IMG/VR virus record: IMGVR_UViG_3300013102_000003
Location: 6,644 to 70,643 of that record
Origin: a virus
Lineage: Duplodnaviria > Heunggongvirae > Uroviricota > Caudoviricetes
DNA: 64,000 nt
Strand: one strand, 5' to 3'
Position numbers and translations under genes: made by a program. The notes under the pieces are model-generated. The model was not told where the DNA came from. It saw only the letters and a list, made by a program, of their open reading frames with translations, and searched no databases. This document shows positions 8,869-63,478 of the stretch, piece after piece; the stretch's first letter is position 1, and every line of letters starts with the position of its first letter.

Positions 8869-9012
8869 GAGATGATCGACAAGCTCGGTTTGATTTCTGA
8901 AGTCGTAGATGATACAATGATACGGGTAGGAAAGAATTGGTACCTTACCGAAGAGTTCGAAATCGAACTGCTTCACAGAGAAGTTGACACAGCCTCTCAG
9001 AGTATGGTATAA
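8869..9012 (+). CDS. Small hypothetical protein (47 aa) whose stop codon lies inside a promoter -10
   Basis: ggagag RBS then ATG 8869. It ends …ASQSMV* with the stop inside tggTATAATag. The C-terminus resembles that of the small ORF ending at 11527. Confidence 0.3.
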   Translation, partial: EMIDKLGLISEVVDDTMIRVGKNWYLTEEFEIELLHREVDTASQSMV

Positions 9013-9013
9013 T
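8984..9013 (+). promoter_or_regulatory. Sigma-70-like promoter (TTGACA-18-TGgTATAAT)
   Basis: ttgaca 8984-8989, 18-nt spacer ending tgg, tataat 9008-9013. Member of a motif repeated across the window. Confidence 0.6.
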
Positions 9014-9089
9014 AGAAGTACACGAAGCGCTGGAGAAGGTTACTTCTTTGGGTGAAAACACACTTTCTCTGTTTTTTCTCGTGTCACTT

Positions 9090-9160
9090 AGGTCTTTGGT
9101 GTAGTGGTAACATGTCGGTCTCCAAAACCGTTGTCAGCAGTTCGAACCTGCTAGGACCTG
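9090..9160 (+). tRNA. tRNA-Trp (CCA)
   Basis: Anticodon loop cuCCAaa, T-arm agcag-ttcgaac-ctgct, and a 7-bp acceptor aggtctt/aggacct. Folded by eye. Confidence 0.7.
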
Positions 9161-9209
9161 CAAGTTTGCACAAACTATAAATGTGTGATAGAATGTAGTA
9201 ACACAGCTT

Positions 9210-9283
9210 CGGGCTGTAGCTCAGCTTGGTAGAGCGCCTGTTTTGGGAACAGGAAGTCGCAGGTTCAAATCCTGTCTGCCCGA
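9210..9283 (+). tRNA. tRNA-Pro (TGG)
   Basis: D-arm tagctcagcttggtagagc, anticodon stem cctgt/acagg with loop ttTGGga, T-arm gcagg-ttcaaat-cctgt. Confidence 0.7.
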
Positions 9284-9469
9284 CGAATGACCGATGCGAT
9301 TGAAAAAGATACTTCATCGAATAGATAATATAGGTATCGGCCAAGAGGAAACTCTTGTCCCTAGCACTGGAACCTTCCAGTTTGTTTTTCAGTTTCACAT
9401 GTAGTACAATAGCTTTACCCGCAGTACAAACCTCTTTTTCTGGTTTTTCTCGGTCATACAATTTTGAAA

Positions 9470-9575
9470 GAAGCGCTAGGACTCTGTTACTTCTCGGATG
9501 AAACCGACCGTAACTGGTTGGTGAGGGTTCAAACCCCTCATTACACAGATTCCGCTTTTACTCTTTCATACAATG
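9470..9575 (+). ncRNA. tRNA-like element (GAAGCG…GTTACTTC motif + anticodon-arm-like + T-arm-like hairpins, no acceptor); candidate Y-RNA-like / tRNA-mimic RNA
   Basis: gaagcg 9470-9475 and gttacttc 9486-9493. Hairpin cgacc-gtaactg-ggttg, then gaggg-ttcaaac-ccctc. No complementary acceptor strands. Confidence 0.35.
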
Positions 9576-9647
9576 CGAAAGTAGCTCAGTTGGTAGAGCG
9601 CCTTCCTTCCAAGTAGGATGTCGCGGGTTCGAGTCCCGTCTTTCGCT
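9575..9647 (+). tRNA. tRNA-Gly (TCC)
   Basis: Acceptor gcgaaag/ctttcgc, D-arm tagctcagttggtagagc, anticodon loop cuTCCaa, T-arm gcggg-ttcgagt-cccgt. Confidence 0.7.
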
Positions 9648-9781
9648 CTAGTACAGATGTGATTAGTCAGGTTACTTCCAACTGTTAATTGAAATCAACA
9701 CTTGACTTACCGTGTTCTCTGTATTAAGCTTTAACTGTTATCAGGAATTCCTGAATTGAAAATGACGAAAGGTAAATAAAC

Positions 9782-11407
9782 ATGTCCAAGTTCAACAACA
9801 CTTCTGCCCGCGCTCGCGCTGGTGCAGGTCCAATCAACTCAACCACTGAAACGACCACCTTCAACGGTGCCAAGGGTTTCAACCGTGACGCCAAGTCCGA
9901 ACTCTTCCTCGCTGCTGTCTCCGACTTCGGTGGAGAGGGTTCGTTCTACGAGTCCGCGTCCAACCGCTCTGACCGTATCACCCGACTGACCCATGAGGTC
10001 GCCGTGGCTGACCCGGAGTGGCTGACCCAGTTCACCAACTGGCTTCGTGAAGAGGCCAACATGCGTACGATCTCCCTGACGATTGCTCTGGAAGGTGCCA
10101 AGGCACTCAACACGGCAAACATTCCGGGCGGACGCAAGGTTGTCTCCGGTGCGATCCGTCGTGCCGATGAGGCCGGTGAGGCTCTGGCCTACTGGTTCGC
10201 TGCCCACGGTCGCAAGATCCCTTCTGCCATCAAGCGTGGTATCGCTGACGGGGCTGTCAAGTCCTTCAACGAGTACTCCCTTGCCAAGTACGACACCTCC
10301 TCGCACGGCTTCCGCTTCGGTGACGTGATCGAACTGACCCACCCTTCCCCGAAGGATGACCGCCAGTCCGACCTCTTCAAGTTTGCGCTTGACCGTCGTC
10401 GTGACGCTTCTGCTGAGCCTGCCGAGTCCCTTGTCATGCTCCAGAAGCGCAAGGAATTCCTCGCTCTGTCCTCGGACAAGCAGAAGGCTCTTGTCAACTC
10501 CGGTGAGGCCATTCAGGTTCTCAAGGACGCTGGCCTGACGTGGGAGGTTCTGTCCTCTGCGTACGGTAAGGGTGGCCTCGACGCCAAGGCGTGGGAAGCT
10601 GTAATCCCGTCCATGGGTTACATGGCTCTGCTCCGCAACCTCCGCAGCTTCGAAGAGAAGGGCGTCTCTGAGGCCGTTCTCGCTCAGGTAGCGGCCCGTA
10701 TCGCTGATCCGGAAGAGGTTGCCAAGAGCCGCCAGCTTCCGTTCCGCTTCCTTGCGGCCTACAAGGCGAACTCCGGTTCGCTGCGTTGGGGCTTCCCGCT
10801 GGAGCAGGCTCTCAAGGCCTCTCTGGAGAACGTCCCGGCCCTGAAGGGTAATACCCTGATCCTTGTGGACCGTTCCGGCTCCATGTTCCAGTCGTTCTCC
10901 AAGAACACTGACCTCACCTTTGCGGACTCCGCTGCGATCTTTGGATCTGCTCTGGCTCTGCGTGCTGAAAATGCCACGCTTGTCCAGTTCGGTTCAAGCT
11001 CCGTTGCGGTACCGTTCAAGAAGAGCGACAGCGTTCTGAAGACCATCGAGAAGTTCTCATCCCTCGGTGGAACGGCAACGTACGACGCCATCAAGAACCA
11101 CTTCGATCCGAAGAAGCACACCCGTGTGGTTCTGATCACGGACGAGCAGGCGAACGGGTTCTACCACCGTCTCAACGGCAACAACGCGAACTACTGGAGC
11201 GGCTATGACCGTGTTCAGGGCAACGTCCTCGATGCGGTCCCGGCCAACGTTCCGACGTTCACGTGGAACCTTGAGGGGTACGCGGCAGGCCACGGCGAGT
11301 CCAAGCCCAACCGCACGTACCTCGGTGGACTGTCCGATCAGGCTTTCAAGCTGATCCCGATCCTCGAATCCGGGCGTGATGCCGGATGGCCTTGGGAAAC
11401 TAAGTGA
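9782..11407 (+). CDS. rsr: Ro60-like (TROVE domain) protein with C-terminal vWA domain (Rsr ortholog)
   Basis: 541 aa. Good RBS gaaagg. The C-terminal LILVDRSGSM MIDAS motif marks a vWA domain, and the N-terminal ~350 aa are helical and TROVE-like. TROVE+vWA is the Ro60/Rsr architecture. Confidence 0.6.
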   Translation: MSKFNNTSARARAGAGPINSTTETTTFNGAKGFNRDAKSELFLAAVSDFGGEGSFYESASNRSDRITRLTHEVAVADPEWLTQFTNWLREEANMRTISLTIALEGAKALNTANIPGGRKVVSGAIRRADEAGEALAYWFAAHGRKIPSAIKRGIADGAVKSFNEYSLAKYDTSSHGFRFGDVIELTHPSPKDDRQSDLFKFALDRRRDASAEPAESLVMLQKRKEFLALSSDKQKALVNSGEAIQVLKDAGLTWEVLSSAYGKGGLDAKAWEAVIPSMGYMALLRNLRSFEEKGVSEAVLAQVAARIADPEEVAKSRQLPFRFLAAYKANSGSLRWGFPLEQALKASLENVPALKGNTLILVDRSGSMFQSFSKNTDLTFADSAAIFGSALALRAENATLVQFGSSSVAVPFKKSDSVLKTIEKFSSLGGTATYDAIKNHFDPKKHTRVVLITDEQANGFYHRLNGNNANYWSGYDRVQGNVLDAVPANVPTFTWNLEGYAAGHGESKPNRTYLGGLSDQAFKLIPILESGRDAGWPWETK

Positions 11408-11497
11408 GTCTCTGGCTCCTGTTTCCTCTTGGTATCGCTCTCCTTGCATTTGCGGGAGAGCGGTACAAGGCCCAGCATGGGTCACCGTACGAAGAAG

Positions 11498-11527
11498 TTG
11501 ACAAGGCTTCTGAAGACGTGGTATAAT
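11498..11527 (+). promoter_or_regulatory. Sigma-70-like promoter (TTGACA-18-TGgTATAAT), embedded in the 3' end of a 41-codon ORF
   Basis: gaagttgacaaggcttctgaagacgtggtataatag is near-identical to the 8984 and 14380 copies. Confidence 0.6.
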
Positions 11528-11547
11528 AGATTTACTGATGCGATAGA

Positions 11548-11610
11548 GAAGCGTTACTTCCTTTCATGAAAAAGTTCTGGGTTCGAGTCCCAGTCACCTC
11601 CGGGTGGTAG
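11548..11610 (+). ncRNA. tRNA-like element: GAAGCGTTACTTC motif + T-arm-like hairpin + closed acceptor-like hairpin
   Basis: gaagcg 11548-11553 overlaps gttacttc 11553-11560. T-arm-like ctggg-ttcgagt-cccag is followed by a cacc-tccg-ggtg hairpin. No 5' acceptor or D-arm. Confidence 0.35.
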
Positions 11611-11657
11611 ATTAATTGGCAAATCAAACACGTTTCTCACCTCTTTCTCAGTATAAT

Positions 11658-11835: not shown

Positions 11836-11886
11836 CACGGAAAACACACAGAGTTCGCCTTTTTCTCTGGACACTAAATTTATACC

Positions 11887-12029
11887 GAAGCGACGTGTCA
11901 AGTTACTTCATAGGAAACAGTGGGTCGCAGGTTCAAATCCTGCTCTCCCGACTTCATCGGGAGGTAGCTCAGTCCGGATAGAGCAACCGTATAGCAAATC
12001 ACTTGACCAGCCTTTTCTCGGTATATTAT
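11887..12029 (+). ncRNA. tRNA-like element: motif + T-arm + acceptor 3' strand followed (not preceded) by complementary acceptor 5' strand and D-arm; no anticodon arm
   Basis: gaagcg 11887-11892, gttacttc 11903-11910. T-arm gcagg-ttcaaat-cctgc. tctcccg, then a 7-nt loop acttcat, then cgggagg + tagctcagtccggatagagc (D-arm-like). The sequence then degenerates. Confidence 0.35.
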
Positions 12030-12113: not shown

Positions 12114-12184
12114 TCCCCTGTAGTGTAACGGCAGCACGAGAGCCTTTGGATCTCTTAGCCTAGGTTCGAATCCCAGTGGGGGAT
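12114..12184 (+). tRNA. tRNA, probably Gln (TTG); non-standard D-arm
   Basis: Loop cuTTGga, T-arm ctagg-ttcgaat-cccag (1 mismatch), acceptor tcccctg/tggggga. Isotype assignment is uncertain. Confidence 0.45.
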
Positions 12185-12229
12185 CTATGGTATAATGATA
12201 GAGTTACGTAACACACACTAGGAGTTCAA

Positions 12230-12427
12230 ATGGCTATTCCAGCTAACAGTTCAAAGATGTCGGAAAACCTCCGTCACGTCAATCAGGGTGCTCGCCCTGC
12301 CGAAATTACCGAGAACCAGCGCATTGCGCTGCGCGACGACTCCCCTGCCGGTGACTCCACTGGCGAGTCACACGCGACCGAGAACTCGGAAAACAAGCGT
12401 ATCGGGACCGTAGTCTACCCGGCTTAA
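12230..12427 (+). CDS. Small hypothetical protein (65 aa)
   Basis: Strong RBS aggag. It is preceded by a tggtataat promoter and followed by a terminator. Confidence 0.45.
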   Translation: MAIPANSSKMSENLRHVNQGARPAEITENQRIALRDDSPAGDSTGESHATENSENKRIGTVVYPA

Positions 12428-12440: not shown

Positions 12441-12480
12441 AAGGGGCTGACTACTACCAAGTAGTCGGCCCCTTTTTCTT
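12441..12480 (+). terminator. Rho-independent terminator
   Basis: aaggggctgactact-acca-agtagtcggcccctt followed by tttctt. Confidence 0.7.
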
Positions 12481-12551
12481 ACCCACATCGTATAACGGCA
12501 ATACAACGGTTTCTGGTACCGTTAATTGAGGTTCGAATCCTTGTGTGGGTG
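12481..12551 (+). tRNA. tRNA-Gln (CTG)
   Basis: Acceptor acccaca/tgtgggt perfect. Anticodon stem acggt/accgt with loop uuCTGgu. Confidence 0.65.
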
Positions 12552-12564
12552 CGCAGCACAATAA

Positions 12565-12637
12565 GGTCGCTTAGCTCAGCAGGTAGAGCGCCACTCTGAT
12601 AAGGTGGATGTCGTGGGTTCAAGTCCCACAGTGGCCA
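12565..12637 (+). tRNA. tRNA-Ile (GAT)
   Basis: D-arm tagctcagcaggtagagcg, stem ccact/ggtgg with loop cuGATaa, T-arm gtggg-ttcaagt-cccac. Confidence 0.7.
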
Positions 12638-12655
12638 CGTAATATAACTGAATAA

Positions 12656-12727
12656 GCCCCCATAGTCTATGGGTTAAGATTCTGGATTTTCACTCCGGGG
12701 TATCGAGTTCGAGTCTCGGTGGGGGTA
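12656..12727 (+). tRNA. tRNA-Glu (TTC)
   Basis: Acceptor gccccca/tgggggt. Stem ctgga/tccgg with loop uuTTCac. T-arm tcgag-ttcgagt-ctcgg. Confidence 0.65.
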
Positions 12728-12728
12728 C

Positions 12729-12864
12729 GGGAAAGTAGCTCAAGGTAGAGTGCTTGGCGTCGTGACGGTTGCAAACGGAACGTGCCCATGTTGGGGTTGA
12801 TCACCTAGCGTGTCGGTTTGTAGCCGAAGCGGATGAGGGTATCGCAGTCCGTCCTTTCCTGTCT
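12729..12864 (+). pseudogene. tRNA fragment/pseudogene (acceptor+D-arm only) plus another GAAGCG motif copy
   Basis: gggaaagtagctcaaggtagagt (tRNA 5' third) with no anticodon or T-arm. ccgaagcgg lies at ~12823. Confidence 0.3.
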
Positions 12865-12938
12865 GGTCCATTAGGCGAATTGGCCAAGCCGTCACCCTCT
12901 CACGGTGAAGATTAGGGGTTCGAGTCCCCTATGGACTA
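12865..12938 (+). tRNA. tRNA-Glu (CTC)
   Basis: Every element checks to the nucleotide. Acceptor ggtccat/atggact, D ggc-gaattggccaa-gcc, perfect stem tcacc/ggtga with loop cuCTCac, T-arm agggg-ttcgagt-cccct. Confidence 0.65.
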
Positions 12939-13141
12939 CGCGGAGCAGTAGAGCAGAATGACTCGCTCTCCGAGAGTTAGCAGGTAGCTTTTAAACTGCC
13001 TGCCAAATTATCGGATAAACGTTGGATTGGTCTCCAGCCTGCAATGCCAATGGAGTCTCCAGCCGATAGATGGCGGCGGCAGCAGTCTTGAAAACTGCCT
13101 GAGGTAAAACTCGTGTGGGTTCGACCCCCACAGGCTCCGCT
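12939..13141 (+). ncRNA. ~200-nt RNA with tRNA-like termini (perfect 7-bp acceptor gcggagc/gctccgc + T-arm) enclosing structured internal region; tmRNA-like or Y-RNA-like candidate
   Basis: 5' gcggagc 12940-12946 is the exact reverse complement of gctccgc 13134-13140, which directly follows the T-arm gtggg-ttcgacc-cccac. An internal perfect hairpin gcagt-cttgaaa-actgc lies at 13082-13098. Confidence 0.35.
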
Positions 13142-13248: not shown

Positions 13249-13333
13249 GGAAGAGAACCGAATGGCTAGGGACCGTCTTGGAAAGACGGTGCGGGTGTGA
13301 AAGCCCATGCGGGTTCGAACCCCGCCTCTTCCG
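13249..13333 (+). tRNA. tRNA-Ser (GGA), type II with long variable arm
   Basis: Acceptor ggaagag/ctcttcc perfect. Anticodon stem ccgtc/gacgg perfect with loop uuGGAaa. Variable arm ggg-tgtgaaag-ccc. T-arm gcggg-ttcgaac-cccgc. Confidence 0.7.
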
Positions 13334-13401
13334 CGAGTTGCACACTGGCATAGTCTTCGATAGACTATGACTACGCATCCAATACAAGGAAAAGGATTAC
13401 T

Positions 13402-14379: not shown

Positions 14380-14409
14380 TTGACACCGCCTCTAAAAGGG
14401 TGGTATAAT
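14380..14409 (+). promoter_or_regulatory. Sigma-70-like promoter (TTGACA-18-TGgTATAAT) driving the next tRNA cluster
   Basis: ttgacaccgcctctaaaagggtggtataatagag lies directly after the ligase stop codon. Confidence 0.65.
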
Positions 14410-14442
14410 AGAGTAACAGTTCGGGATCTGTAAAATCCCAAT

Positions 14443-14515: not shown

Positions 14516-14588
14516 CGGAGAGCAGTTAACGGCTCTCAAGCAGATTGTGTGGGTTCGATTCCCTGCTGGTTGCAACACATCTGCGCTT
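14516..14588 (+). pseudogene. tRNA-like fragment (D-arm-like + T-arm-like hairpins, no acceptor pairing or anticodon arm)
   Basis: gagc-agttaacg-gctc then tgggttcgattccc. No complement for the ggagagc 5' end. Confidence 0.3.
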
Positions 14589-15049: not shown

Positions 15050-15274
15050 ATGGGTAATATGGATAGCGTAGAATCAATCCTAGTAGAAGAAGTTGAACTT
15101 CTCAAGAAAATCCTCGCATCGGTGGAGAATATCACAGGTATGCGCGAGATCCATGTACGCCTACCAGACGGTTCGGTAGAAATCTTGAAGCTGGAAGCAC
15201 GGGCAGAGGAACACGAGGAACTTCTTAGAAAGGCTGAACAACGGCTTGACACGTACCGCGAAAGTCTGGTATAA
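15050..15274 (+). CDS. Hypothetical protein (74 aa, coiled-coil-like) inside the tRNA array
   Basis: RBS aaggatgg. The ORF's last codons and stop form a tggtataatagag promoter -10. Confidence 0.45.
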   Translation: MGNMDSVESILVEEVELLKKILASVENITGMREIHVRLPDGSVEILKLEARAEEHEELLRKAEQRLDTYRESLV

Positions 15275-15275
15275 T
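15246..15275 (+). promoter_or_regulatory. Sigma-70-like promoter (TTGACA-18-TGgTATAAT)
   Basis: ttgacacgtaccgcgaaagtctggtataat. Drives tRNA-Leu(GAG) onward. Confidence 0.6.
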
Positions 15276-15286
15276 AGAGTAACAAT

Positions 15287-15374: not shown

Positions 15375-15403
15375 TTGACAGGTTCTTCGGAAGCTGGTAG
15401 ACT
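15375..15403 (+). promoter_or_regulatory. Sigma-70-like promoter (TTGACA-17-TAGACT)
   Basis: ttgacaggttcttcggaagctggtagact. Confidence 0.45.
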
Positions 15404-16213: not shown

Positions 16214-16519
16214 GTGCTCGACAACCTCAAGACAAAATTCTACCTCTTCTGGGACAAATTCCAGAATGACCCCGTATTCTCTCGCAAGCTCAACGGATGG
16301 CTGGCGGTCATCTGGCTCGCAGCGTCCCTCCCGATCTGCATCTTCCTCTCAACATCTGTACCGTTCCTAGTGTTCGTCTCCGTGTACGCCATTGTCGCAA
16401 GCCACTGGAGCACGTGGCAGGCCTCACGAGTTGAGGTCAGGCAGGCGGAAGATTCCGTTGCCGAAGACATCCTCAAAGAACTCGATGAGAAGACCGATGT
16501 TGTGGTCACCAGAAAATAA
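16214..16519 (+). CDS. Membrane protein (2 TM helices)
   Basis: 101 aa with hydrophobic segments WLAVIWLAASLPICIFL and VPFLVFVSVYAIVASHW. A tataat promoter precedes it. Confidence 0.45.
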   Translation: MLDNLKTKFYLFWDKFQNDPVFSRKLNGWLAVIWLAASLPICIFLSTSVPFLVFVSVYAIVASHWSTWQASRVEVRQAEDSVAEDILKELDEKTDVVVTRK

Positions 16520-16599
16520 TGGTACAATAGTACTCTAGCGGACCGGCACCGCCTACAATCGAGTAGGCCGTGTCGGTCCCGTCAATTTAGGGGAGATCA

Positions 16600-17228: not shown

Positions 17229-17299
17229 CAAACTGCCGCGCAGTGTGATAGTCGGCTGATGGTACAATAGAGTATAACAAACACTCTAAGGAGCCTTGA

Positions 17300-18082: not shown

Positions 18083-18101
18083 GACCCACCGCGCTACATT
18101 G

Positions 18102-18220: not shown

Positions 18221-18877
18221 ATGAAAAATCACACGAAGTACCCCGCCCTTGTCTCTACTATCCTGCTGTCCGTAGCCCTCTTCGCTACACCGGCCCACGC
18301 CGACACGGACACCACAATCCAGCGTGAGTCCGCTTCGGCAGACATCCCCGTTGCTGCTCCAGCCACTGCAAAGCTCAGCTATGCACGTACTGAGGTCACC
18401 ACCACAGCAGCTATCGAAGTCGTCCCTGTCTCTGAGCCTGTGTATCAGGACGCCGCACCGGAGAAAGTCGCCAACACACCAACCCAAACGCTTACACCTA
18501 AGGCTACAGCTACGCCCAAGGCCAAGGAAGCTCCAGCAGTTTCTGCCTCCGGTAAGGGAGCGGCCATAGCGTCCGCTGCTTACGCCCAGCTTGGAGTTCC
18601 ACAGGACTGCACGGCCCTTGTGACGAATTCCCTAGCCGCAGTCGGAATCCACTTCCACGACTGGCCCGCTGGCTACCTGACCCTTGGAACGGTCATCCCT
18701 GCTTCACAGGCACAGGCTGGAGACCTTGCCTACTACGCTAACGGTGGCACCGGAATGGCCCACATTGCAGTCTACGTCGGCAACGGCATGGCTGTACATG
18801 GCGGCTGGAACGGTGGAACCACAGCACTCTTCTCTGTGAACGTCGGCTCCGGCCCTGTTTTCATTAGAGTTGCGTAG
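18221..18877 (+). CDS. Secreted NlpC/P60-family peptidase (signal peptide)
   Basis: Signal peptide ending ATPAHA. Catalytic Cys in QDCTALV and His in MAHIAVYVGNGMAVHG. Adjacent to the amidase, so a possible second lysin activity. Confidence 0.6.
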   Translation: MKNHTKYPALVSTILLSVALFATPAHADTDTTIQRESASADIPVAAPATAKLSYARTEVTTTAAIEVVPVSEPVYQDAAPEKVANTPTQTLTPKATATPKAKEAPAVSASGKGAAIASAAYAQLGVPQDCTALVTNSLAAVGIHFHDWPAGYLTLGTVIPASQAQAGDLAYYANGGTGMAHIAVYVGNGMAVHGGWNGGTTALFSVNVGSGPVFIRVA

Positions 18878-19006
18878 CAGATCTAAATCTGGTACAATGG
18901 TATTGCCAGCGCTTCTCGGCAGAGGGATGAAGCTCATATCTTCGTCTGAGCGGGATCGACACCCGCCGTTGGTACTGTAAGATCAAGCAAACGACGAAAG
19001 AGAAAT

Positions 19007-20577: not shown

Positions 20578-20849
20578 CACAGACGACAACGCCTGATAAG
20601 CTAGTATCAGAAGTAATCGATGCATTCCTCAAGGGCTTCAACGCCCCTGAAAAACCTTCACAGGAAGCAGAGCCTAAGGACCCCGGAGAGCCGGTAGCCC
20701 CGAAGGACTTCTCGAATGTAGAGCCGTACACCGAAGCGCTCCGGATTCTCGGGGATCTTGAGGCCAATGCCGGAGATTTTGAAGACGACCTCCGTCTTCA
20801 GATTGCCGACCGGTACATCGAAATCGGACGCCAGCTTCTCAACGGTTGA
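20574..20849 (+). CDS. Acidic hypothetical protein
   Basis: TTG start at 20574 overlapping the upstream stop (ATTGA). The track's longer start at 20544 overlaps the exonuclease. Confidence 0.35.
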   Translation: MTQTTTPDKLVSEVIDAFLKGFNAPEKPSQEAEPKDPGEPVAPKDFSNVEPYTEALRILGDLEANAGDFEDDLRLQIADRYIEIGRQLLNG

Positions 20850-20875
20850 CAAGTAAGTAAATGGTATGGTATAAT
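20846..20875 (+). promoter_or_regulatory. Sigma-70-like promoter (TTGACA-18-TGgTATAAT) for tRNA cluster
   Basis: ttgacaagtaagtaaatggtatggtataat. Confidence 0.6.
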
Positions 20876-25240: not shown

Positions 25241-25423
25241 TCTGGCTGGGTGCACTAGGCACCCTAGTCCTGTTCATCCTCCAGATGACCGGCCTGATCG
25301 CCATCTCCGGATGGCTGATCCTTACCCCGCTGCTGATCGGCGTCAGCCTGACCGTCATCTTCTGGGTAATTATCCTGATTATCGGGGTCTTGACCAGCTA
25401 ACAATAATGTAGTAAAATAGAAG

Positions 25424-25547: not shown

Positions 25548-26060
25548 ATGAAAACAATCGTATATTTCGATGTTGACGGCGTCATCAACAGCTTCCACCG
25601 GACCAAGCAGGCCGGATGGAAGGGCGAGTGGGAGCTTGCACAGGTCATCGGCTACAAGATCCACTGGTACACTGACCTCGTTGAGGAAATCAACAAGCTC
25701 TCCAAGATGGAGAACGTCGAGGTCAAGTGGCTCACCACGTGGCAGGACAAGGCCGTAACGGATCTGTGCCCCGCTCTGGGGATCGAGGGCACCTCTTGGG
25801 ACGTTCTCTACGCTGCGGATCAGGAAGACCTGTTCGACCTGTCCAACGGCTGGTGGAAGCTCCGTGCGATCATCAAAGACTACAACATCAGCAAGCCTGA
25901 TAAGATGGTCTGGATTGACGATGACTTCAAGTACGAAGGCAACGCCATGGAGTGGGCCAACTTCCTTGGACCCGAGATTATCCACCCTGTCTCCCCGTTC
26001 ACTGACTGGGGGATGACAAAGGAAGATTTTAATGGTATAATAGAGTTTATCAACAACTAG
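25548..26060 (+). CDS. HAD-superfamily phosphatase
   Basis: Motif I VYFDVDGVIN near the N-terminus and motif IV WIDDD. 170 aa. Confidence 0.55.
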   Translation: MKTIVYFDVDGVINSFHRTKQAGWKGEWELAQVIGYKIHWYTDLVEEINKLSKMENVEVKWLTTWQDKAVTDLCPALGIEGTSWDVLYAADQEDLFDLSNGWWKLRAIIKDYNISKPDKMVWIDDDFKYEGNAMEWANFLGPEIIHPVSPFTDWGMTKEDFNGIIEFINN

Positions 26061-28403: not shown

Positions 28404-28466
28404 GTACCTATTTTACCACACCGCGCCCATTTTGCGAAAAGCCACGAAAAATGGTATACTAGTTGG

Positions 28467-38067: not shown

Positions 38068-38096
38068 TTGTATGTCCTTGGAATTCGTGGTAGAAT
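38068..38096 (+). promoter_or_regulatory. Promoter (TTGTAT-17-TAGAAT)
   Basis: ttgtatgtccttggaattcgtggtagaatagag. Confidence 0.4.
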
Positions 38097-38146
38097 AGAG
38101 TGGTAAGTCCCCGTAATGGGGTAACTACCACCGTAAGTGAATACAA

Positions 38147-41482: not shown

Positions 41483-41518
41483 TTTACTTTTCGAGTAGCC
41501 TGTGGTAGACTCTAGTCA

Positions 41519-43619: not shown

Positions 43620-43629
43620 TAGGGTAAAC

Positions 43630-43658
43630 TTTACAAAAGTGCGTCTATAGTGTAGAAT
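43630..43658 (+). promoter_or_regulatory. Promoter (TTTACA-17-TAGAAT)
   Basis: tttacaaaagtgcgtctatagtgtagaatagaag. Confidence 0.45.
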
Positions 43659-44371: not shown

Positions 44372-44376
44372 GACGT

Positions 44377-44404
44377 TGACTTAACTCATATCCTGCCGTA
44401 CAAT
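44377..44404 (+). promoter_or_regulatory. Promoter (TTGACT-16-TACAAT)
   Basis: ttgacttaactcatatcctgccgtacaat. Confidence 0.45.
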
Positions 44405-44434
44405 GTAACATACAAGTACAAGAAAAGGCAGCAT

Positions 44435-48229: not shown

Positions 48230-48264
48230 GCCCCAGCTAGATTTCTCCTCAAAAGTATGGTATC

Positions 48265-48663
48265 ATGGAGAGTCACCAAAGACAAGAACTAACCAAAGAA
48301 ATTTTAGGAACTACAATGAACGACTTCAAACCCAAAGCAGATTACGCCCCCAACGAGAAGAAGGTGTGGCGACCGGAAGAGGTCGAGTTCGTCCCGACTC
48401 CCGTTGGTAAGCCTGAAGGTGTATACTTTATTGCCATCGAAGAGCTTCAGGGCGCTTGGATCGACAATGAGTGGGAAGAGGCTGACGGCGACGAGACGTG
48501 GACCGAGACCTACACCGACAAAGAAGGCAACTTCATCACCCGAGTCATCGAGAAGCGCATTCCCCGCTCCCGCAGATATGTCCTGAAGAAGTTCAACGAA
48601 AACGGAAAAGCAGAGAACGCATTCTCATCCGGTTACGCTGGACCTCGTCAGTACCAAAAGTAA
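48265..48663 (+). CDS. Hypothetical protein (132 aa)
   Basis: Preceded by a tggtatcat promoter-like element. Confidence 0.4.
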   Translation: MESHQRQELTKEILGTTMNDFKPKADYAPNEKKVWRPEEVEFVPTPVGKPEGVYFIAIEELQGAWIDNEWEEADGDETWTETYTDKEGNFITRVIEKRIPRSRRYVLKKFNENGKAENAFSSGYAGPRQYQK

Positions 48664-56166: not shown

Positions 56167-56175
56167 ATTATACCA
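56167..56175 (-). promoter_or_regulatory. -10 element (TGgTATAAT on minus strand) for terminase operon
   Basis: Reverse complement of 56161-56186 reads …ttatggtataatagagta, the same consensus as the + strand promoters. Confidence 0.5.
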
Positions 56176-56211
56176 TAATTAGCACGTTTTACCAATCAAA
56201 AGGAGAAATAC

Positions 56212-57346: not shown

Positions 57347-57894
57347 GCGCGAGTGAAGAGATCGTCATCGATCCGGCTACGGGCCTGCCGGAACTCCCTG
57401 AAGGGTTGTTCTGGCGGGTAGGGGACTTCGCCCGTTCGTACGCGTCGGGCGGCTGGTCAAGGGGCAGCGGGGGTCTCCTTCCCGGAATCGGCATCATGAG
57501 GTGGGAGTATGTCAAGAAGGCAGTCACGACCCCCATCTATGGTACGCGCTGGTACAATAAGAAGACCGTCGTGGAGTACGATATTGACTACACGACCGAA
57601 AAGGAGGCCCAGACTGTCCGGGCCGCACTCTTCACCGGCCACACGGCCTACTCGAAGACGGAGATACCCTCCATCGGATACGAGACCGGCTCCATGAGCA
57701 TGCACGGCAAGACCACCGAGTGGAACTACGAGATTCCGGTGACCCGAGAGGGTACACTCTGGCTTGCAGAAAAACTCCTGAAGGCTTACACGGCAAGCGA
57801 ACTGTATTGGAAGAAGTACAACGAAGGCGAAGAGGCAAAGAAAAAGATGCGTGACGAAATCTACGGGGACTACCCGCCCAAGACGATTTTGTAA
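57343..57894 (+). CDS. Paralog family A member
   Basis: DPATGLPELPEGLFWRV … IYGDYPPKTIL. Overlapping start. Confidence 0.5.
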   Translation: MSASEEIVIDPATGLPELPEGLFWRVGDFARSYASGGWSRGSGGLLPGIGIMRWEYVKKAVTTPIYGTRWYNKKTVVEYDIDYTTEKEAQTVRAALFTGHTAYSKTEIPSIGYETGSMSMHGKTTEWNYEIPVTREGTLWLAEKLLKAYTASELYWKKYNEGEEAKKKMRDEIYGDYPPKTIL

Positions 57895-57942
57895 GCACCC
57901 TTACAGTATGGTACAATAGAGGTTCACCGATTGGAGAATCAT

Positions 57943-61215: not shown

Positions 61216-61635
61216 ATGGAAATCGCAATCGGAATCATCCTGCTCATCTCCAATCTGGTGATGGCGCACCGGCTGGGGCAACTCAAGCCGCCCAGACAAT
61301 ACAGGGATGCCTACGAACTGGAGGCCCCCAAGGCGCACCGGCTGGTCCGGACGTGGATCGAACCCGACCCGATAGACGGAGGCCTACCCGGCTGGCGCTT
61401 CCTTTGCACCTGCGGCACCCAAGGCATGGCGACCAACATCAAGGACAGGGTTCTCGGGAGTGAAGAGAACGTTGTCAAGCAGTTCAGCGGACACGCCGCG
61501 CTGTTCGCCTCAGTCAACGAGGACGGCTGGAAGCAGCGCTACGACAAGCTCAAGGCCATGTTTGATTGGTACGTCGAAACGTGCTACTGTAAGGACACAA
61601 ACAACGACCTCATCGAATGGAGGAACAAGCAATGA
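61216..61635 (+). CDS. Hypothetical protein (139 aa)
   Basis: Strong RBS aaggaggaaccATG. Confidence 0.45.
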   Translation: MEIAIGIILLISNLVMAHRLGQLKPPRQYRDAYELEAPKAHRLVRTWIEPDPIDGGLPGWRFLCTCGTQGMATNIKDRVLGSEENVVKQFSGHAALFASVNEDGWKQRYDKLKAMFDWYVETCYCKDTNNDLIEWRNKQ

Positions 61636-61751
61636 TCGGACTCTGGTTCATCATTATCGCGCAGTTCGCGGTGATCGTCTGGCTGGTCTACGACAAGCTC
61701 AAGAAAAGCCCGCCCAGCCGTGGACACGGAGTAAGCAGTGAGGGCGACTGA
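61632..61751 (+). CDS. Small membrane peptide (39 aa), not in track
   Basis: ATGA-coupled. Single TM segment LWFIIIAQFAVIVWLV. Confidence 0.3.
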   Translation: MIGLWFIIIAQFAVIVWLVYDKLKKSPPSRGHGVSSEGD

Positions 61752-61894
61752 TGCTGAAGAACGGGAAGAACGCGCCCAACAAACTCCACAACAACGGCTG
61801 CTCCTGCTGCAACACCAAACAGGAGCGCCGTGTCGTACGAAAGATTGCACGACTCAAGGAAAAACTACGATGGAAGAGAGACCAACAGCTTGAC

Positions 61895-62447
61895 AAAGAT
61901 TGACGAAACAACAGGCCTGCCAGCACTCCCGCATGACATGTTTTGGCGGGTCACCGAAGTGAAGCTCAGTACCCGATACGGCGAAGCGAAGAGTGTCGGG
62001 GCGGTGGAGATCTCGCTGATGCAGAAATACACCACGGTCACCAAGGCCTACGAAGACTACCGCTTCCGTAGAAACGGCTTCTGGAAGCGTATGTGGACCG
62101 GAGAGACAAATACGAAGGAAAACTACACTGTCCCGGAGAAGACCGAGGACAACGTGAGGCGGGTAAGCTACTACAACATGCTCTCGGACACGTCACAAGA
62201 GCCTAAAGACATGTCAGGATGGGCCGAGCACACTTACACCGGCTACAGCAGCGGCAACACCCACAAGCGCTACTACAAGGTGACCCCGGCAACCCCGGAA
62301 AATCTTCTGGAAGCTGCCATCGACACACTGAAGCACTACCTCGACCTCCAGCACGCAGAGGCCCTGAATGAGGACCGCCAGCGTGAGCTTGACCGGATTC
62401 TCGGAGACTACCCACCCAAGTCGCTCAAGGATCTGGTGGACGCGTGA
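61895..62447 (+). CDS. Paralog family A member
   Basis: TTG 61895 gives MTKIDETTGLPALPHDMFWRV…ILGDYPPKSL, aligned with the other family members. The track start at 61830 is too long. Confidence 0.45.
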
Positions 62448-62749
62448 GCATGGAAATTGACGAGCGCACCGGCCTTCCCAAGCTTCCCGATTGGCACTTC
62501 TGGCATGTAGGCCGACGTGACAGGGCTGGAGATTACCGGTTCTCCCTGAGAGTCGGCTGGACGCGGTGGTTCAGCAGTGAACTGAGCCATGCATGGATCT
62601 ACGACAGGCTGACCGAAGACAAGATCAGGTCAAAGGCCGAATCCCTTTACGTTGACTGGGAAAAGAAAACAGCCCATGCCAAGGAAGCCGCACGTCTCGT
62701 CGGCAGCTACCCTCCCAAGACACTCAACAAGAAGAAGGATACAGTATGA
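62444..62749 (+). CDS. Paralog family A member (short form)
   Basis: MSMEIDERTGLPKLPDWHFWHV…LVGSYPPKTL. Confidence 0.45.
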   Translation: MSMEIDERTGLPKLPDWHFWHVGRRDRAGDYRFSLRVGWTRWFSSELSHAWIYDRLTEDKIRSKAESLYVDWEKKTAHAKEAARLVGSYPPKTLNKKKDTV

Positions 62750-62970
62750 CAACAGAACAGCAAGACTGGGCCGACACCAACCGTCGCATCCAGTTGCAAT
62801 CCAAGCCCGAGTACTTCGAAGTCGTGAAGCGTGAAGTGGCGTACTCCGACCAGCGCGAAGGCACCACGTACAAGGAAACCCTGATTAGTGTACACACCTC
62901 GCGTGCCGCCGCCTTGGAGTCCGTGATGCCCAAGGGGATAATCATCCGACCTCTGACGGTGAAAAGCTGA
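62746..62970 (+). CDS. Hypothetical protein (74 aa)
   Basis: ATGA-coupled. Confidence 0.35.
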   Translation: MTTEQQDWADTNRRIQLQSKPEYFEVVKREVAYSDQREGTTYKETLISVHTSRAAALESVMPKGIIIRPLTVKS

Positions 62971-63146
62971 TGGCGGAACGCAAGAAGCGCACCAGCCACA
63001 CACTCGCGGCACTGGAGAAGCAGATCGCATCCGACAAGGCCCGAGATGAAGCCGAACCGCTGGAGGCTCTGATCGGAGTCATCCAGCCCCTGATTGCCAA
63101 GGAGGAAGCGAAGAATGACGAAGCCGACAAGCCAACAGAGGGATGA
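62970..63146 (+). CDS. Small hypothetical protein (58 aa), not in track
   Basis: ATG coupled to the upstream stop. Charged, helical. Confidence 0.3.
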   Translation: MAERKKRTSHTLAALEKQIASDKARDEAEPLEALIGVIQPLIAKEEAKNDEADKPTEG

Positions 63147-63288
63147 CGCTGGGAAGGCCCTGTACGACCGCTGGCGGTCCACTGACGCCGAACTGAAGAC
63201 CGAGTGGGCAGATGCCCCAGACACGCTGCGCGGGGTCTTCCTGAGGCACGTGGACACCGTTACGGCGGTGTTCTTCCCGGATGAATAA
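63115..63288 (+). CDS. Small hypothetical protein
   Basis: ATG 63115 (MTKPTSQQ…) in the frame of track ORF 63094..63288. Confidence 0.3.
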   Translation: MTKPTSQQRDDAGKALYDRWRSTDAELKTEWADAPDTLRGVFLRHVDTVTAVFFPDE

Positions 63289-63456
63289 GCACGGACTGGC
63301 CATCTCGGTACTGGAGAACAAGGCTGACTACTATCGGCGCATTGCCAACGACGGCGAGTACCGCTACGGCGACCCGAAGGATGAGATCGATACGTGGAGG
63401 TCCATGGCCGTCAAGTGCGACGAGGCCGCTGAAGCACTGAAGGCCTTGAGTTGACT
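63283..63456 (+). CDS. Small hypothetical protein (57 aa), not in track
   Basis: ATGA-coupled. MNKHGLAISVLENKADYYRRIAN…. Confidence 0.3.
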
Positions 63457-63478
63457 TGCGGGCCGGTCTAGTCTAGAC
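63450..63478 (+). promoter_or_regulatory. Promoter (TTGACT-17-TAGACT)
   Basis: ttgacttgcgggccggtctagtctagact. RBS aaggag follows. Confidence 0.5.

What the first reader, a model, noticed from the sequence alone, without database searches (positions are those of the whole stretch)
8984..63478. One highly conserved promoter family (gaagTTGACA-N18-TGGTATAATAGAG) reused at 20 or more sites, several with the -10 overlapping the stop codon of a small upstream ORF
Near-identical copies lie at 8984, 11498, 14380, 15246 and 20846. Variants with TACAAT, TAGAAT or TAGACT -10 elements lie near 16523, 17264, 18893, 26036, 28449, 38091, 41506, 43653, 44399, 48240, 57910 and 63473, and one - strand copy lies at 56167. 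In three cases (8869-9012, the unlisted 41-codon ORF ending 11527, and 15050-15274) the ORF terminates …V* using gTATAAtag, so translation termination and promoter share sequence. Their C-termini are similar (EVDTASQSMV and EEVDKASEDVV), which suggests the promoter cassette moved together with a short coding tail.
Basis: seen in the sequence. Interest (0 to 1): 0.6.

Follow-up and report, generated by a model that had tools for sequence, protein, structure and literature searches.

The report
Host-type promoters in a phage tRNA island
The repeated motif is a real family of about 25-35 ordinary host-type (sigma-A, extended -10) promoters in an uncultured large actinobacterial phage; the best copies drive its tRNA and Y-RNA-like genes, and the overlaps with stop codons come from tight gene packing, not from a mobile cassette.

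Summary
Five exact TTGACA-N18-TATAAT sites were found (0.01 expected by chance). A position-weight scan gave 24 sites at 14 bits or more (0.7 expected). Of these, 23 are on the + strand, all point the same way as the next gene, and 20 lie outside features although 87% of the window is CDS or tRNA.

The window is a metagenomic phage syntenic with the ~194-kb Arthrobacter phages Atuin and Racecar. Twelve sites recur in those phages at the same distance from the orthologous gene, with the -35, TGn and -10 kept and the spacers diverged.

The consensus is TTGaca-N17/18-TGG-TAnAAT-AGAg, an actinobacterial SigA extended -10 promoter. The six best copies all precede RNA genes (tRNAs and Y-RNA-like RNAs beside a Ro/TROVE gene). 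Several weaker copies sit 5-7 nt from an ATG, which suggests leaderless mRNAs.

The three stop-in-the--10 cases are real. They belong to a general pattern in which upstream stops fall in the -35, the spacer or the -10, or lie flush with the -35.

The similar C-termini arise from reading GTTGAC and GGTATAA in one frame. A third copy (14380) gives VDTASKRVV* outside any ORF. Sequence upstream of the promoters does not align, so the "cassette with a coding tail" idea is not supported, although a few copies share spacer similarity.

This is a new member of a known kind and of low interest.

The parts
8984..9017 (+). Full-consensus promoter, TTGACA-18-(TGG)TATAAT-AGAA. It drives a Y-RNA-like leader (9019-9085) and then tRNA-Trp at 9090. 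The stop of ORF 8803-9012 lies in the -10.
   Evidence: Atuin orthologue at L001 19735-19764
11498..11531 (+). Full-consensus promoter. It drives a YrlA-like RNA (about 11533-11653), tRNA-Thr, a second YrlA-like RNA (about 11880-12025), tRNA-Phe and tRNA-Gln. The stop of the 40-codon ORF 11404-11526 lies in the -10.
   Evidence: the Atuin orthologue TTGACA-18-TGATACAAT-AGATTTACTGAAGCG has a different spacer
14380..14413 (+). Full-consensus promoter lying flush against the TAG stop of the DNA ligase gene (13402-14379). It drives the tRNA-Val, Leu, Ile and Arg cluster.
15246..15279 (+). Full-consensus promoter 12 nt upstream of tRNA-Leu(gag). The stop of the orphan ORF 15050-15274 lies in the -10.
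   Evidence: the Atuin and Racecar orthologues keep TGGTACAAT / TGATACAAT at the same distance
15375..15403 (+). TTGACA-17-(TGG)TAGACT promoter just after tRNA-Leu(gag) and upstream of tRNA-Leu(tag).
20846..20875 (+). Full-consensus promoter 14 nt upstream of tRNA-Met. The TGA stop of the upstream gene (20574-20849) lies inside the -35 hexamer.
   Evidence: conserved in Atuin and Racecar (A3)
26013..26045 (+). ATGACA-17-(TGG)TATAAT-AGAG promoter inside the last 48 nt of CDS 25548-26060, 30 nt upstream of tRNA-Thr(ggt).
9165..9194 (+). Weaker promoter, TTTGCA-18-(TGA)TAGAAT, before tRNA-Pro.
   Evidence: Racecar has TGATAGAAT at the matching place
9382..9410 (+). Weaker promoter-like site (TACAAT-AGC) between tRNA-Pro and tRNA-Gly. 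A fourth copy of the Y-like 3' motif follows at 9427-9454.
   Evidence: family D15
12166..12196 (+). Extended -10 promoter (TGGTATAAT) whose upstream half overlaps the 3' end of tRNA-Gln. It drives the small CDS 12230-12427.
   Evidence: kept in Atuin and Racecar at the same distance
25390..25418 (+). TTGACC-17-TAAAAT-AGAA promoter before tRNA-Arg(cct). The upstream stop lies in the spacer.
4060..4091 (+). -35-less site gGGTACAAT-AGAA inside the 3' end of CDS 3641-4111, 35 nt before the NrdH-like gene at 4122.
   Evidence: TACAAT/TAAAAT-AGAAGACC kept in Racecar and Atuin
16500..16528 (+). TTGTGG-17-(TGG)TACAAT promoter. The TAA stop of 16214-16519 lies in the spacer.
17241..17272 (+). -35-less TGGTACAAT-AGAG promoter 32 nt before the amidase (endolysin) gene at 17300.
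18870..18898 (+). TTGCGT-17-(TGG)TACAAT promoter. The stop of 18221-18877 overlaps the 3' end of the -35 hexamer.
28432..28460 (+). TTGCGA-17-(TGG)TATACT promoter with the ATG 7 nt after the -10, so a leaderless mRNA is likely. It lies back to back with the - strand site at 28410-28438.
28410..28438 (-). TTCGCA-17-(TGG)TAAAAT on the - strand, 6 nt before the ATG (28403) of the Mre11-like gene. A leaderless mRNA is likely.
38068..38100 (+). TTGTAT-17-(TGG)TAGAAT-AGAG promoter lying flush against the upstream TAG stop. It drives the PhoH-like gene (annotated RecA-like in relatives) at 38147 through a conserved 51-nt leader.
   Evidence: A2; fourth genome, L029
39478..39509 (+). TGGTATCAT-AGAG site directly after a terminator hairpin (39460-39488), 31 nt before the collagen-like ORF at 39537.
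41483..41511 (+). TTTACT-17-(TGG)TAGACT promoter lying flush against the upstream TAG stop, with the ATG 7 nt after the -10, so a leaderless mRNA is likely.
43630..43658 (+). TTTACA-17-(GTG)TAGAAT-AGAA promoter before the gene at 43690. A second site (43602-43630, TTGACA-17-TAAACT) lies just upstream.
44376..44404 (+). TTGACT-17-TACAAT promoter without TGn, upstream of the helicase gene at 44435.
   Evidence: A4: -35 and -10 conserved in Atuin and Racecar
48258..48266 (+). TGGTATCAT extended -10 with no -35.
56167..56195 (-). TTGGTA-17-(TGG)TATAAT-AGAG on the - strand, 5 nt before the ATG of 55874-56161. That gene is followed by the terminase gene (54448-55893). A leaderless mRNA is likely.
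57889..57921 (+). TTGTAA-17-(TGG)TACAAT-AGAG promoter. The TAA stop of 57496-57894 lies inside the -35 hexamer.
63451..63479 (+). TTGACT-17-TAGACT promoter. The TGA stop of 63281-63454 lies inside the -35 hexamer.
8803..9012 (+). Small gene (47-69 codons, depending on the start). It is real: 50% identical to Racecar gp114.
11404..11526 (+). 40-codon ORF whose start overlaps the Ro gene stop (GTGA) and whose N-terminus is hydrophobic. Atuin has an unannotated hydrophobic 23-codon ORF at the same place that ends before the -35. Possibly real.
15050..15274 (+). 74-codon orphan ORF. Its only database match is itself, and its coding score is weak.

Best explanation
These sites are transcription promoters read by the host's housekeeping RNA polymerase holoenzyme (SigA, the actinobacterial sigma-70 homologue). 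The phage is a large, uncultured, probably lytic actinobacterial phage related to Arthrobacter phages Atuin and Racecar.

The family consensus is TTGaca, then 17-18 bp whose last three bases are TGG (extended -10), then TAnAAT, then AGAg (discriminator). Transcription would start about 6-8 nt after the -10.

The elements compensate for each other in the usual way:
- Copies with every element perfect sit in front of stable-RNA units, namely the tRNA clusters and the Y-RNA-like RNAs next to the Ro gene.
- Copies with a weak or missing -35 rely on TGG-TAnAAT and precede protein-coding operons.
- A third group has TTGACA but no TGn.
- Some copies start leaderless mRNAs.

The genome is tightly packed, so each promoter is built into or directly against the end of the preceding gene. 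The motif itself supplies stop codons: TGA in TTGACA, TAA in TATAAT or TTGTAA, and TAG just after the -10. Upstream reading frames therefore often end inside the promoter, and their last residues are promoter sequence read as protein.

Shown here: the motif, its excess over chance, its orientation and placement, its conservation at orthologous places, and the stop-codon geometry. Inferred: polymerase binding, start sites, relative strengths and timing.
For: Excess over chance:
- 5 perfect sites against 0.01 expected.
- 16 against 2.46 for the -10 block.
- 24 against 0.7 at 14 bits or more.
- Generic sigma-70 scans gave 29 vs 11.5, 23 vs 9.2 and 12 vs 5.5 in three sections of the window.

Placement:
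- 23 of 24 sites are on the + strand. The single - strand site precedes - strand genes.
- 20 of 24 have the -10 outside any feature although 87% of the window is covered by CDS or tRNA (binomial p about 1e-14).
- Of the 24 sites, 15 lie within about 50 nt of the next gene or tRNA start (range 5-556 nt).

Conservation:
- Orthologous sites in Atuin and/or Racecar lie at the same distance from the same gene, with the hexamers kept and the spacers changed. These are 11522, 15270, 20870, 26036, 38091, 28455, 43653, 41506, 4082, 12191, 57912 and 56172(-) (alignments A2-A4).
- A fourth genome, L029, keeps TGGTAGAATAGAGTGGTAAGTCCC.

Motif details:
- Logo: T-15, G-14 and G-13 in 21-23 of 24 sites, TAnAAT, and A-6, G-5, A-4 in 17-19 of 24.
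- AGA after TGNTANANT is enriched without using the PWM to select sites: 9 of 48 against a 1.8% background, p = 2e-7; in Atuin 11 of 95, p = 2e-6.
- The strongest in-vitro-selected mycobacterial promoter, A37, carries TGGTACACT 6 bp upstream of +1 (PMC1616969).

What the sites drive:
- The six top-scoring sites all precede RNA genes. That is 10 RNA-preceding sites among 24, hypergeometric p about 0.002 by my own arithmetic. The Mann-Whitney test gives p = 0.03.
- In the complete Atuin genome, 11 of 21 sites at 16 bits or more lie in the tRNA island. Only two fall in the structural-gene region (18-76 kb). One copy sits at the inner edge of each terminal repeat, and none sits among the small-gene arrays there.
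- ATG codons 5-7 nt after the -10 at 28455, 41506, 56172(-) and 28415(-) fit leaderless starts.

Context:
- No RNA polymerase or sigma gene is annotated anywhere in Atuin.
- Multiple strongly predicted SigA-like promoters, some leaderless, are already described in Cluster O mycobacteriophages (PMC4351075).
Against: - There are no transcription data. Start sites, strengths and timing are all inferred.
- The host is unknown, because the window is a metagenomic contig. Its SigA preference could not be checked directly.
- The extra conserved positions (G-13 and AGA at -6 to -4) are not part of the textbook consensus. They could reflect a phage-specific requirement.
- Some tRNA groups, such as 12481-13140, sit behind a strong terminator with no detectable promoter. 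The map of transcription units is therefore incomplete.
- The PWM was trained on sites from this window, so its scores are partly circular. The exact-pattern counts, the generic scans and the relatives are independent of it.
Confidence: 0.85

Rival explanations
1. The motif is a mobile promoter cassette that spreads through the genome and carries a short coding tail, which it grafts onto upstream genes.
For: - The five perfect copies form a 44-nt repeat family (D9).
- Their spacers are more alike than chance (best pair 10/15, p about 0.008; summed over pairs, p about 0.001). By my own count, they are also more alike than orthologous spacers (3-4/15).
- The copy at 14380 follows a DNA ligase gene that is absent at that place in Atuin.
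- The 15246 spacer shares the 8-mer CGCGAAAG, in register, with Atuin's non-orthologous tRNA-Met promoter.
Against: - Nothing upstream of about -41 aligns among the copies (A1). No terminal repeats or target duplications were seen.
- Twelve sites are syntenic with relatives.
- The "tail" residues V-D...V-stop are dictated by the hexamers. The same "tail" appears at 14380 outside any ORF.
- In Racecar a different gene ends in the equivalent -10.
- Across 43 promoters from three genomes, spacer sharing is barely above shuffles: 19 pairs with 8 or more matches of 14, against 9.2 expected and a maximum of 25.
Confidence: 0.07
2. The family is a phage-specific promoter class. Host polymerase recognises it only after modification or with a phage factor, for example the phage WhiB-like protein (43904-44371). 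G-13 and the AGAG discriminator would be the specificity determinants.
For: - G-13 and AGA are conserved beyond the canonical hexamers in the window and in Atuin.
- The phage encodes a WhiB-family protein (also annotated in Atuin and Racecar).
- Many members lack a -35, as factor-dependent promoters often do.
- The family is almost absent from Atuin's terminal-repeat gene arrays and structural genes, so other promoter classes must exist.
Against: - TGG-TAnAnT is the extended -10 of the best host-type mycobacterial promoter (PMC1616969).
- A G two bases after the -10 is a known favourable contact of sigma region 1.2 (my own knowledge: Haugen et al. 2006).
- The strict 34-nt pattern, AGAG included, occurs singly in 50 unrelated bacterial genomes and 19 viral contigs. 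About 4 matches are expected by chance in the genome collection (my own arithmetic). It is therefore a generic good promoter.
- Full TTGACA -35 boxes in the best copies point to ordinary sigma region 4 contact.
Confidence: 0.08
3. The repeats are binding sites for a phage regulator (operator or "stoperator"-like sites) rather than polymerase recognition sites.
For: - Oriented, mostly intergenic, multi-copy short repeats are also how the stoperators of Cluster A mycobacteriophages look (my own knowledge).
- A few spacers contain short palindromes: CTCTcAGAG at 8984, CTTCtGAAG at 11498, and an 8-bp stem in Atuin's Trp promoter.
Against: - The motif has two blocks that equal the sigma-70 hexamers, with variable 16-19 bp spacing and compensating block strengths.
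- It keeps fixed short distances to ATG or tRNA starts.
- Dyad symmetry in the spacers is not enriched: mean stem 3.36 against 3.28 in random windows and 3.16 in spacer shuffles.
Confidence: 0.02

Closest known systems
Actinobacterial SigA promoters of the extended -10 class (for example the selected mycobacterial promoter A37; Agarwal & Tyagi 2006, PMC1616969)
   Same: TGG-TAnAnT extended -10, a weak or dispensable -35, and a start about 6 nt downstream. The compensation between -35 and TGn is the same.
   Different: Here the motif is reused about 25 times in 64 kb of a phage. A conserved AGA(G) follows the -10, and in the best copies a perfect TTGACA lies at 18 bp.
The sets of strongly predicted SigA-like promoters in actinobacteriophages, for example the 8-9 per genome in Cluster O mycobacteriophages (PMC4351075)
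   Same: Multiple near-consensus host-type promoters placed between genes. Some are predicted to give leaderless mRNAs.
   Different: The density is higher here, and the best copies are concentrated in a 29-tRNA island in front of RNA genes. The Cluster O phages are ~70-kb siphoviruses with a separate 17-bp palindromic repeat, and no equivalent repeat was seen here.
The tRNA-gene region of coliphage T5 (my own knowledge: tRNA genes interspersed with short ORFs, many strong early promoters and terminators)
   Same: A phage tRNA island broken up by small ORFs and punctuated by many strong host-type promoters.
   Different: The host phylum and the promoter fine structure differ. Few terminators are seen here.
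Putative mobile promoters in prokaryotic genomes (my own knowledge: Matus-Garcia et al. 2012, "Promoter propagation in prokaryotes")
   Same: Near-identical promoter sequences upstream of unrelated genes within one genome. A few copies share spacer sequence.
   Different: Most copies here are syntenic with relatives, and similarity stops at the promoter edges. No evidence of transposition was found.
YrlA-type Y RNAs encoded next to Ro60/Rsr in bacteria and mycobacteriophages (Chen et al. 2014, PMC4201824)
   Same: Modules containing a tRNA-like domain lie within 600 nt of a TROVE/Ro gene. These are what the promoter at 11498 drives.
   Different: The Rfam scores are below the gathering threshold (29.4 and 26.4 bits against 69). 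One module (9019-9085) lacks the tRNA-like domain. Each module is fused directly upstream of a true tRNA.

Membership tests
Sigma-70-family housekeeping (SigA) promoter, extended -10 class | A -10 hexamer matching TAnnnT | tested here: met
   24 of 24 sites have T-12, A-11 and T-7, and A-9 and A-8 occur in 19-22 of 24. T-12, A-11 and T-7 were invariant in the seed set used to select these sites.
Sigma-70-family housekeeping (SigA) promoter, extended -10 class | TGn immediately upstream of the -10 | tested here: met
T-15 in 22 of 24 and G-14 in 21 of 24.
Sigma-70-family housekeeping (SigA) promoter, extended -10 class | A -35 element related to TTGACA at 16-19 bp | tested here: met
   TTG in 19-20 of 24. 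Full TTGACA occurs in six sites of the TGG subtype and in further sites without TGn. It is absent in a minority, as this class allows.
Sigma-70-family housekeeping (SigA) promoter, extended -10 class | Located upstream of genes, in the same orientation, and outside coding sequence | tested here: met
   20 of 24 lie outside features although coverage is 87%. All are co-oriented with the next gene.
Sigma-70-family housekeeping (SigA) promoter, extended -10 class | Purifying selection on the elements but not on the spacer | tested here: met
   Twelve orthologous sites in Atuin and/or Racecar, plus L029.
Sigma-70-family housekeeping (SigA) promoter, extended -10 class | Holoenzyme binding and a primary 5' end 5-9 nt downstream | not testable with these tools
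   No transcriptome or biochemistry exists for this metagenomic phage.
Mobile promoter cassette or miniature mobile element | Similarity extends beyond the functional core into shared flanks, terminal repeats or target duplications | tested here: not met
   In A1 only the promoter columns are conserved. Family D9 is 44 nt long.
Mobile promoter cassette or miniature mobile element | Copies at non-syntenic positions in related genomes | tested here: not met
   Twelve sites are syntenic. Exceptions such as 14380 sit next to a lineage-specific gene insertion.
Repressor operator or stoperator repeats | A single conserved block or dyad that does not depend on the sigma-70 hexamers | tested here: not met
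   The motif has two blocks with variable spacing. Spacer dyad symmetry is not enriched.
Leaderless-mRNA promoters of Actinobacteria | A start codon 5-8 nt downstream of the -10 with no Shine-Dalgarno sequence | tested here: met
   Sites 28455, 41506, 56172(-) and 28415(-). The same geometry is seen in Atuin and Racecar. The start sites themselves were not measured.
YrlA (Rfam RF02553), as the product of the 11498 promoter | Reaches the Rfam gathering score | tested here: not met
   29.4 and 26.4 bits against 69.
YrlA (Rfam RF02553), as the product of the 11498 promoter | Encoded within 4 kb of a Ro60/TROVE gene and containing a tRNA-like T-arm/D-arm domain | tested here: met
   The TROVE gene is 9782-11407. 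The alignments show the T and D arms. The criterion comes from PMC4201824.

The most novel reading that the evidence does not exclude
The positions conserved beyond the textbook elements (G-13 and AGAG at -6 to -3), together with the family's concentration in the tRNA and replication modules and its near absence from the terminal-repeat and structural modules of the relative Atuin, could mark a distinct temporal class. That class might depend on, or be tuned by, a phage factor such as the WhiB-like protein acting on host SigA. Alternatively it might be built to escape host control of stable-RNA promoters. In addition, the copies may be kept uniform within a genome by short-patch gene conversion.
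Probability: 0.1. Interest if true: 0.5.

Novelty: new member of a known kind. Interest (0 to 1): 0.22.

Why it matters
The result gives a ready transcription map for an unstudied group of ~190-kb actinobacterial phages. About 25-35 predicted promoters are listed. The strongest are dedicated to the phage's own tRNAs and Y-RNA-like RNAs, and several predict leaderless mRNAs.

The full-consensus 34-bp sequence could be tried as a strong promoter part for Arthrobacter or related hosts.

The result also warns annotators that the last 5-10 codons of small genes in such compact genomes may simply be promoter sequence. Similar C-termini there need not mean homology.

It does not change what is known about promoters or phage regulation.

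Tried and rejected
1. Hairpin or dyad symmetry in the spacer. Several copies looked palindromic, but over 42 promoters from three genomes the longest stem is no better than in random windows or spacer shuffles.

2. A mobile cassette. Flanks do not align, and global spacer sharing among 43 promoters is weak.

3. Homologues of ORF 15050-15274. None were found in phage records or against Racecar gp136 at the same position. The 5.8-billion-protein search found only the ORF itself.

4. Scans for the strict 34-nt pattern. IMG/VR gave 19 single, unrelated hits. GTDB genomes gave 50 single hits, mostly Clostridia and Patescibacteria and none in Actinobacteria, and only one lies directly before a tRNA. 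This showed the pattern is a generic perfect promoter. It did not identify the host or any close relatives.

5. Rfam at gathering thresholds found only tRNAs. The Y-RNA-like hits appear only below threshold.

6. A single-protein search of IMG/VR for relatives found nothing. The alignment-based search found one close relative, L029, and distant ones.

7. Literature searches for Atuin, Racecar or their promoters found nothing specific.

Full report
**What the window is.** It carries 29 tRNA genes between 9090 and 26334, and nearly all genes are on the + strand. In gene order it matches the ~194-kb Arthrobacter globiformis phages Atuin, Racecar, Mimi and Talia1610. The match is distant: 74-82% nucleotide identity in patches covering about 10% of the query. 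A protein from the window occurs only on metagenomic contigs: ENA ERZ27252506 (114,667 bp), a Logan run, and a 168,556-bp JGI contig. The window is therefore an uncultured relative of that phage group, and its host is not known.

**Checking the observation.** All five have 18-bp spacing and TGG before the -10, against 0.01 expected. TGGTANAATAGAG with up to 2 mismatches occurs 16 times against 2.46 expected.

A two-block weight matrix with 16-19 bp spacing finds 24 sites at 14 bits or more against 0.7 in dinucleotide shuffles, and 29 at 12 bits or more against 2.6. The matrix was trained on window sites, so I also relied on the exact counts and on the tool's generic sigma-70 scan. That scan gave 29 vs 11.5, 23 vs 9.2, 12 vs 5.5 and 4 vs 3.4 in four sections.

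The other three (44399, "48240" which is really 48261, and 63473) are plausible sigma-70-type sites of another flavour.

**Evidence that these are promoters.**
- Twenty-three of the 24 sites are on the + strand. The single - strand site (56167-56195) lies 5 nt from the ATG of a - strand gene that is followed by the terminase gene.
- Twenty of the 24 have their -10 outside any CDS or tRNA, although 87% of the window is covered (binomial p about 1e-14).
- Fifteen of the 24 lie within about 50 nt of the next gene or tRNA start, with a range of 5-556 nt.
- At twelve sites the orthologous gene in Atuin and/or Racecar is preceded, at the same distance, by a site with the same -35/TGn/-10 but a different spacer. 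Three alignments show this pattern (A2, A3 and A4). An IMG/VR contig, L029, adds a fourth genome for the 38068 promoter.

**The consensus.** The logo is TTGaca, 17-18 bp, T-15 G-14 G-13, TAnAAT, A-6 G-5 A-4 r T. TGG-TAnAnT is the extended -10 of the strongest in-vitro-selected mycobacterial promoter (A37, TGGTACACT, 6 bp from +1; PMC1616969). The AGA after the -10 is enriched even when sites are chosen only as TGNTANANT: 9 of 48 against a 1.8% background, p = 2e-7, and in Atuin 11 of 95, p = 2e-6. From my own knowledge, a G two bases after the -10 is a favourable contact of sigma region 1.2. I therefore read AGAG as a discriminator that favours stable open complexes. This is an inference.

**What the promoters drive.** The six best sites (30-36.5 bits) all precede RNA genes:
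- 8984 precedes tRNA-Trp.
- 11498 precedes tRNA-Thr.
- 14380 precedes tRNA-Val.
- 15246 precedes tRNA-Leu(gag).
- 15375 precedes tRNA-Leu(tag).
- 26013 precedes tRNA-Thr(ggt).

With 10 RNA-preceding sites among 24, that has a hypergeometric probability of about 0.002 (my own arithmetic). The Mann-Whitney test gives p = 0.03. Leaders are as short as about 5-7 nt at 15246 and 20846.

In the complete Atuin genome, 11 of 21 sites at 16 bits or more lie in the tRNA island (90-111 kb). Only two fall in the structural-gene region (18-76 kb). One copy sits at the inner edge of each 17-kb terminal repeat, and none sits among the small-gene arrays there. Other promoter classes must therefore exist in this phage group.

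Weaker members precede the endolysin, PhoH-like, nucleotidyl-transferase, helicase and terminase-operon genes. At 28455, 41506, 56172(-) and 28415(-) the ATG lies 5-7 nt after the -10. This is the geometry of actinobacterial leaderless mRNAs, and Atuin and Racecar share it. No RNA polymerase or sigma gene is annotated in Atuin. A WhiB-family gene is present.

**The stop-codon overlaps.** The three cases are correct but are part of a wider pattern:
- Three upstream stops lie in the -10 (9008, 11522, 15270).
- Several lie in or overlapping the -35: 20870 as TGA in TTGACA, 57912 as TAA in TTGTAA, 63451 as TGA in TTGACT, and 18893.
- Two lie in the spacer (16523, 25413).
- Three lie exactly flush with the -35 (14404, 38091, 41506).
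- Two lie downstream of the -10 (4082, 26036).

For an 18-bp-spaced consensus promoter, one reading frame meets TGA in the -35, one meets TAA-TAG at the -10, and one reads through.

In Racecar, annotated genes show the same thing. gp115 ends ...GTG ATA TAA inside TGATATAAT before tRNA-Trp, and gp136 ends at the TAG after TACAAT before tRNA-Leu(gag).

**Are the small ORFs real?**
- ORF 8803-9012 is real. It is 50% identical to Racecar gp114, and tblastn gives E = 2e-7.
- ORF 11404-11526 starts with a GTGA overlap on the Ro gene stop and has a hydrophobic N-terminus. Atuin has a hydrophobic 23-codon ORF at the same place that ends before the -35. It is possibly real.
- ORF 15050-15274 has no homologue anywhere.

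**The "coding tail".** In the frame where TAA is a stop, gTTGAC reads V-D and nTG-GTA-TAA reads (M/V)-V-stop. Only E, A and S remain as extra similarity between EVDTASQSMV and EEVDKASEDVV. The copy at 14380 gives ...VVDTASKRVV* in that same frame, but with stop codons about 20 codons upstream and no gene. The similarity therefore belongs to the promoter DNA.

Flanks upstream of the -35 do not align (A1). The repeat family found without prior assumptions is 44 nt long (D9). In Racecar it is a different gene (gp115, not the gp114 homologue) that ends in the -10.

Some evidence for copying does remain. The spacers of the five perfect copies are more alike than chance (best pair 10/15, p about 0.008; summed over pairs, p about 0.001). 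By my own count from the spacers, they are also more alike than the orthologous window-Atuin pairs (3-4/15). The 15246 spacer shares CGCGAAAG, in register, with Atuin's non-orthologous Met promoter. Over 43 promoters from three genomes the signal is weak: 19 pairs with 8 or more matches of 14, against 9.2 expected and a maximum of 25. I read this as occasional duplication or conversion of the ~44-bp core, not as a mobile element.

The similarity between 8984 and 11498 that extends downstream of the -10 comes from related Y-RNA-like leaders, not from the promoter.

**Rivals.**
- A phage-factor-dependent class cannot be excluded without biochemistry. It is disfavoured because every element has a host-type explanation. 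In addition, the strict 34-nt pattern, AGAG included, occurs singly in 50 unrelated bacterial genomes and 19 viral contigs. About 4 matches would be expected by chance in the genome collection (my own arithmetic).
- Operator-like sites are disfavoured by the two-block, variable-spacing architecture and by the lack of enriched dyad symmetry.

**Comparison with known cases, and verdict.** Sets of near-consensus SigA-like promoters, including leaderless ones, are already described for actinobacteriophages, for example 8-9 per genome in Cluster O (PMC4351075). From my own knowledge, coliphage T5 has a similar promoter-rich tRNA region. The family here is a dense, well-conserved example with a clear preference for stable-RNA units. 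It is a new member of a known kind.

The promoter interpretation is supported with about 0.85 confidence. The mobile "coding tail" interpretation is not supported. Interest is low, at about 0.2.

Noticed in passing
window 9019-9085, 11533-11653, 11880-12025 (and a 3' motif copy at 9427-9454); Ro/TROVE gene at 9782-11407: There are three to four Y-RNA-like modules. Each begins TAC..GA(A/T)GCG......AAG.GTTACTTC and ends CTTT(T)CTC.GT, and each sits directly upstream of a true tRNA (Trp, Thr, Phe). Two contain a tRNA-like T/D-arm domain and give sub-threshold YrlA hits (29.4 and 26.4 bits against a gathering score of 69). Atuin has orthologues, one of them without the tRNA-like domain. These RNAs are what the 8984 and 11498 promoters transcribe first.
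   Followed up: partly
window 44390-44397 and 44426-44432; Atuin L022 about 17070-17106; Racecar L023 about 30180-30216: An inverted repeat links the spacer of the helicase promoter (TCCTGCC) to the ribosome-binding region (GGCAGGA). Racecar shows a compensatory double change (TCCTACC / GGTAGGA). Only transcripts that read through from upstream would contain both arms. The repeat could therefore hide the ribosome-binding site in read-through RNA but not in RNA started at this promoter.
   Followed up: partly
window 38099-38146: The 51-nt leader of the PhoH-like gene (annotated RecA-like in relatives) is almost invariant in four genomes. It forms a hairpin right at the predicted 5' end (GTGGTA-AGTCCC...GGG-TAACTACCAC).
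   Followed up: partly
window 28404-28466: A 63-bp divergent region holds two overlapping back-to-back promoters. Both face genes whose ATG lies 6-7 nt from the -10, so both mRNAs are likely leaderless. The arrangement is conserved in Atuin and Racecar.
   Followed up: partly
window 39537-39959: A collagen-like Gly-X-Y repeat ORF made of 9-nt tandem units. My codon-usage gene caller missed it. It is preceded by a terminator and the TGGTATCAT-AGAG site.
   Followed up: no
window 13402-14379: An ATP-dependent DNA ligase gene sits inside the tRNA array between tRNA-Ser and tRNA-Val, where Atuin has only tRNAs. A perfect promoter follows immediately after its stop codon.
   Followed up: no
window 13309-13338, 14544-14570, 26221-26247: T-arm-like fragments (GGGTTCGA.xCCC) lie between called tRNAs. 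Neither ARAGORN nor Rfam called them as tRNAs. They may be tRNA remnants or further tRNA-like RNAs.
   Followed up: no
window 18100-18147 and 12441-12474: At 18100-18147 a strong terminator hairpin carries TTGACT in its loop and 3' arm, and its T-run leads into TATACT, so terminator and promoter overlap. At 12441-12474 a strong terminator lies 7 nt before tRNA-Gln(ctg). No detectable promoter serves the following five tRNAs.
   Followed up: no
Atuin record OK040794.2, 1-17 kb and 177-194 kb (L024, L026): The relative has ~17-kb terminal repeats full of small genes with 60-140-nt gaps. Apart from one copy at the inner edge of each repeat, these arrays lack this promoter family, so they must use another signal.
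   Followed up: no
Genome-contig loci L074, L078, L098 (MAG CSMAG_2049): One metagenome-assembled genome carries three exact copies of the strict 34-nt promoter pattern on two contigs. Every other genome with a hit has only one copy.
   Followed up: no
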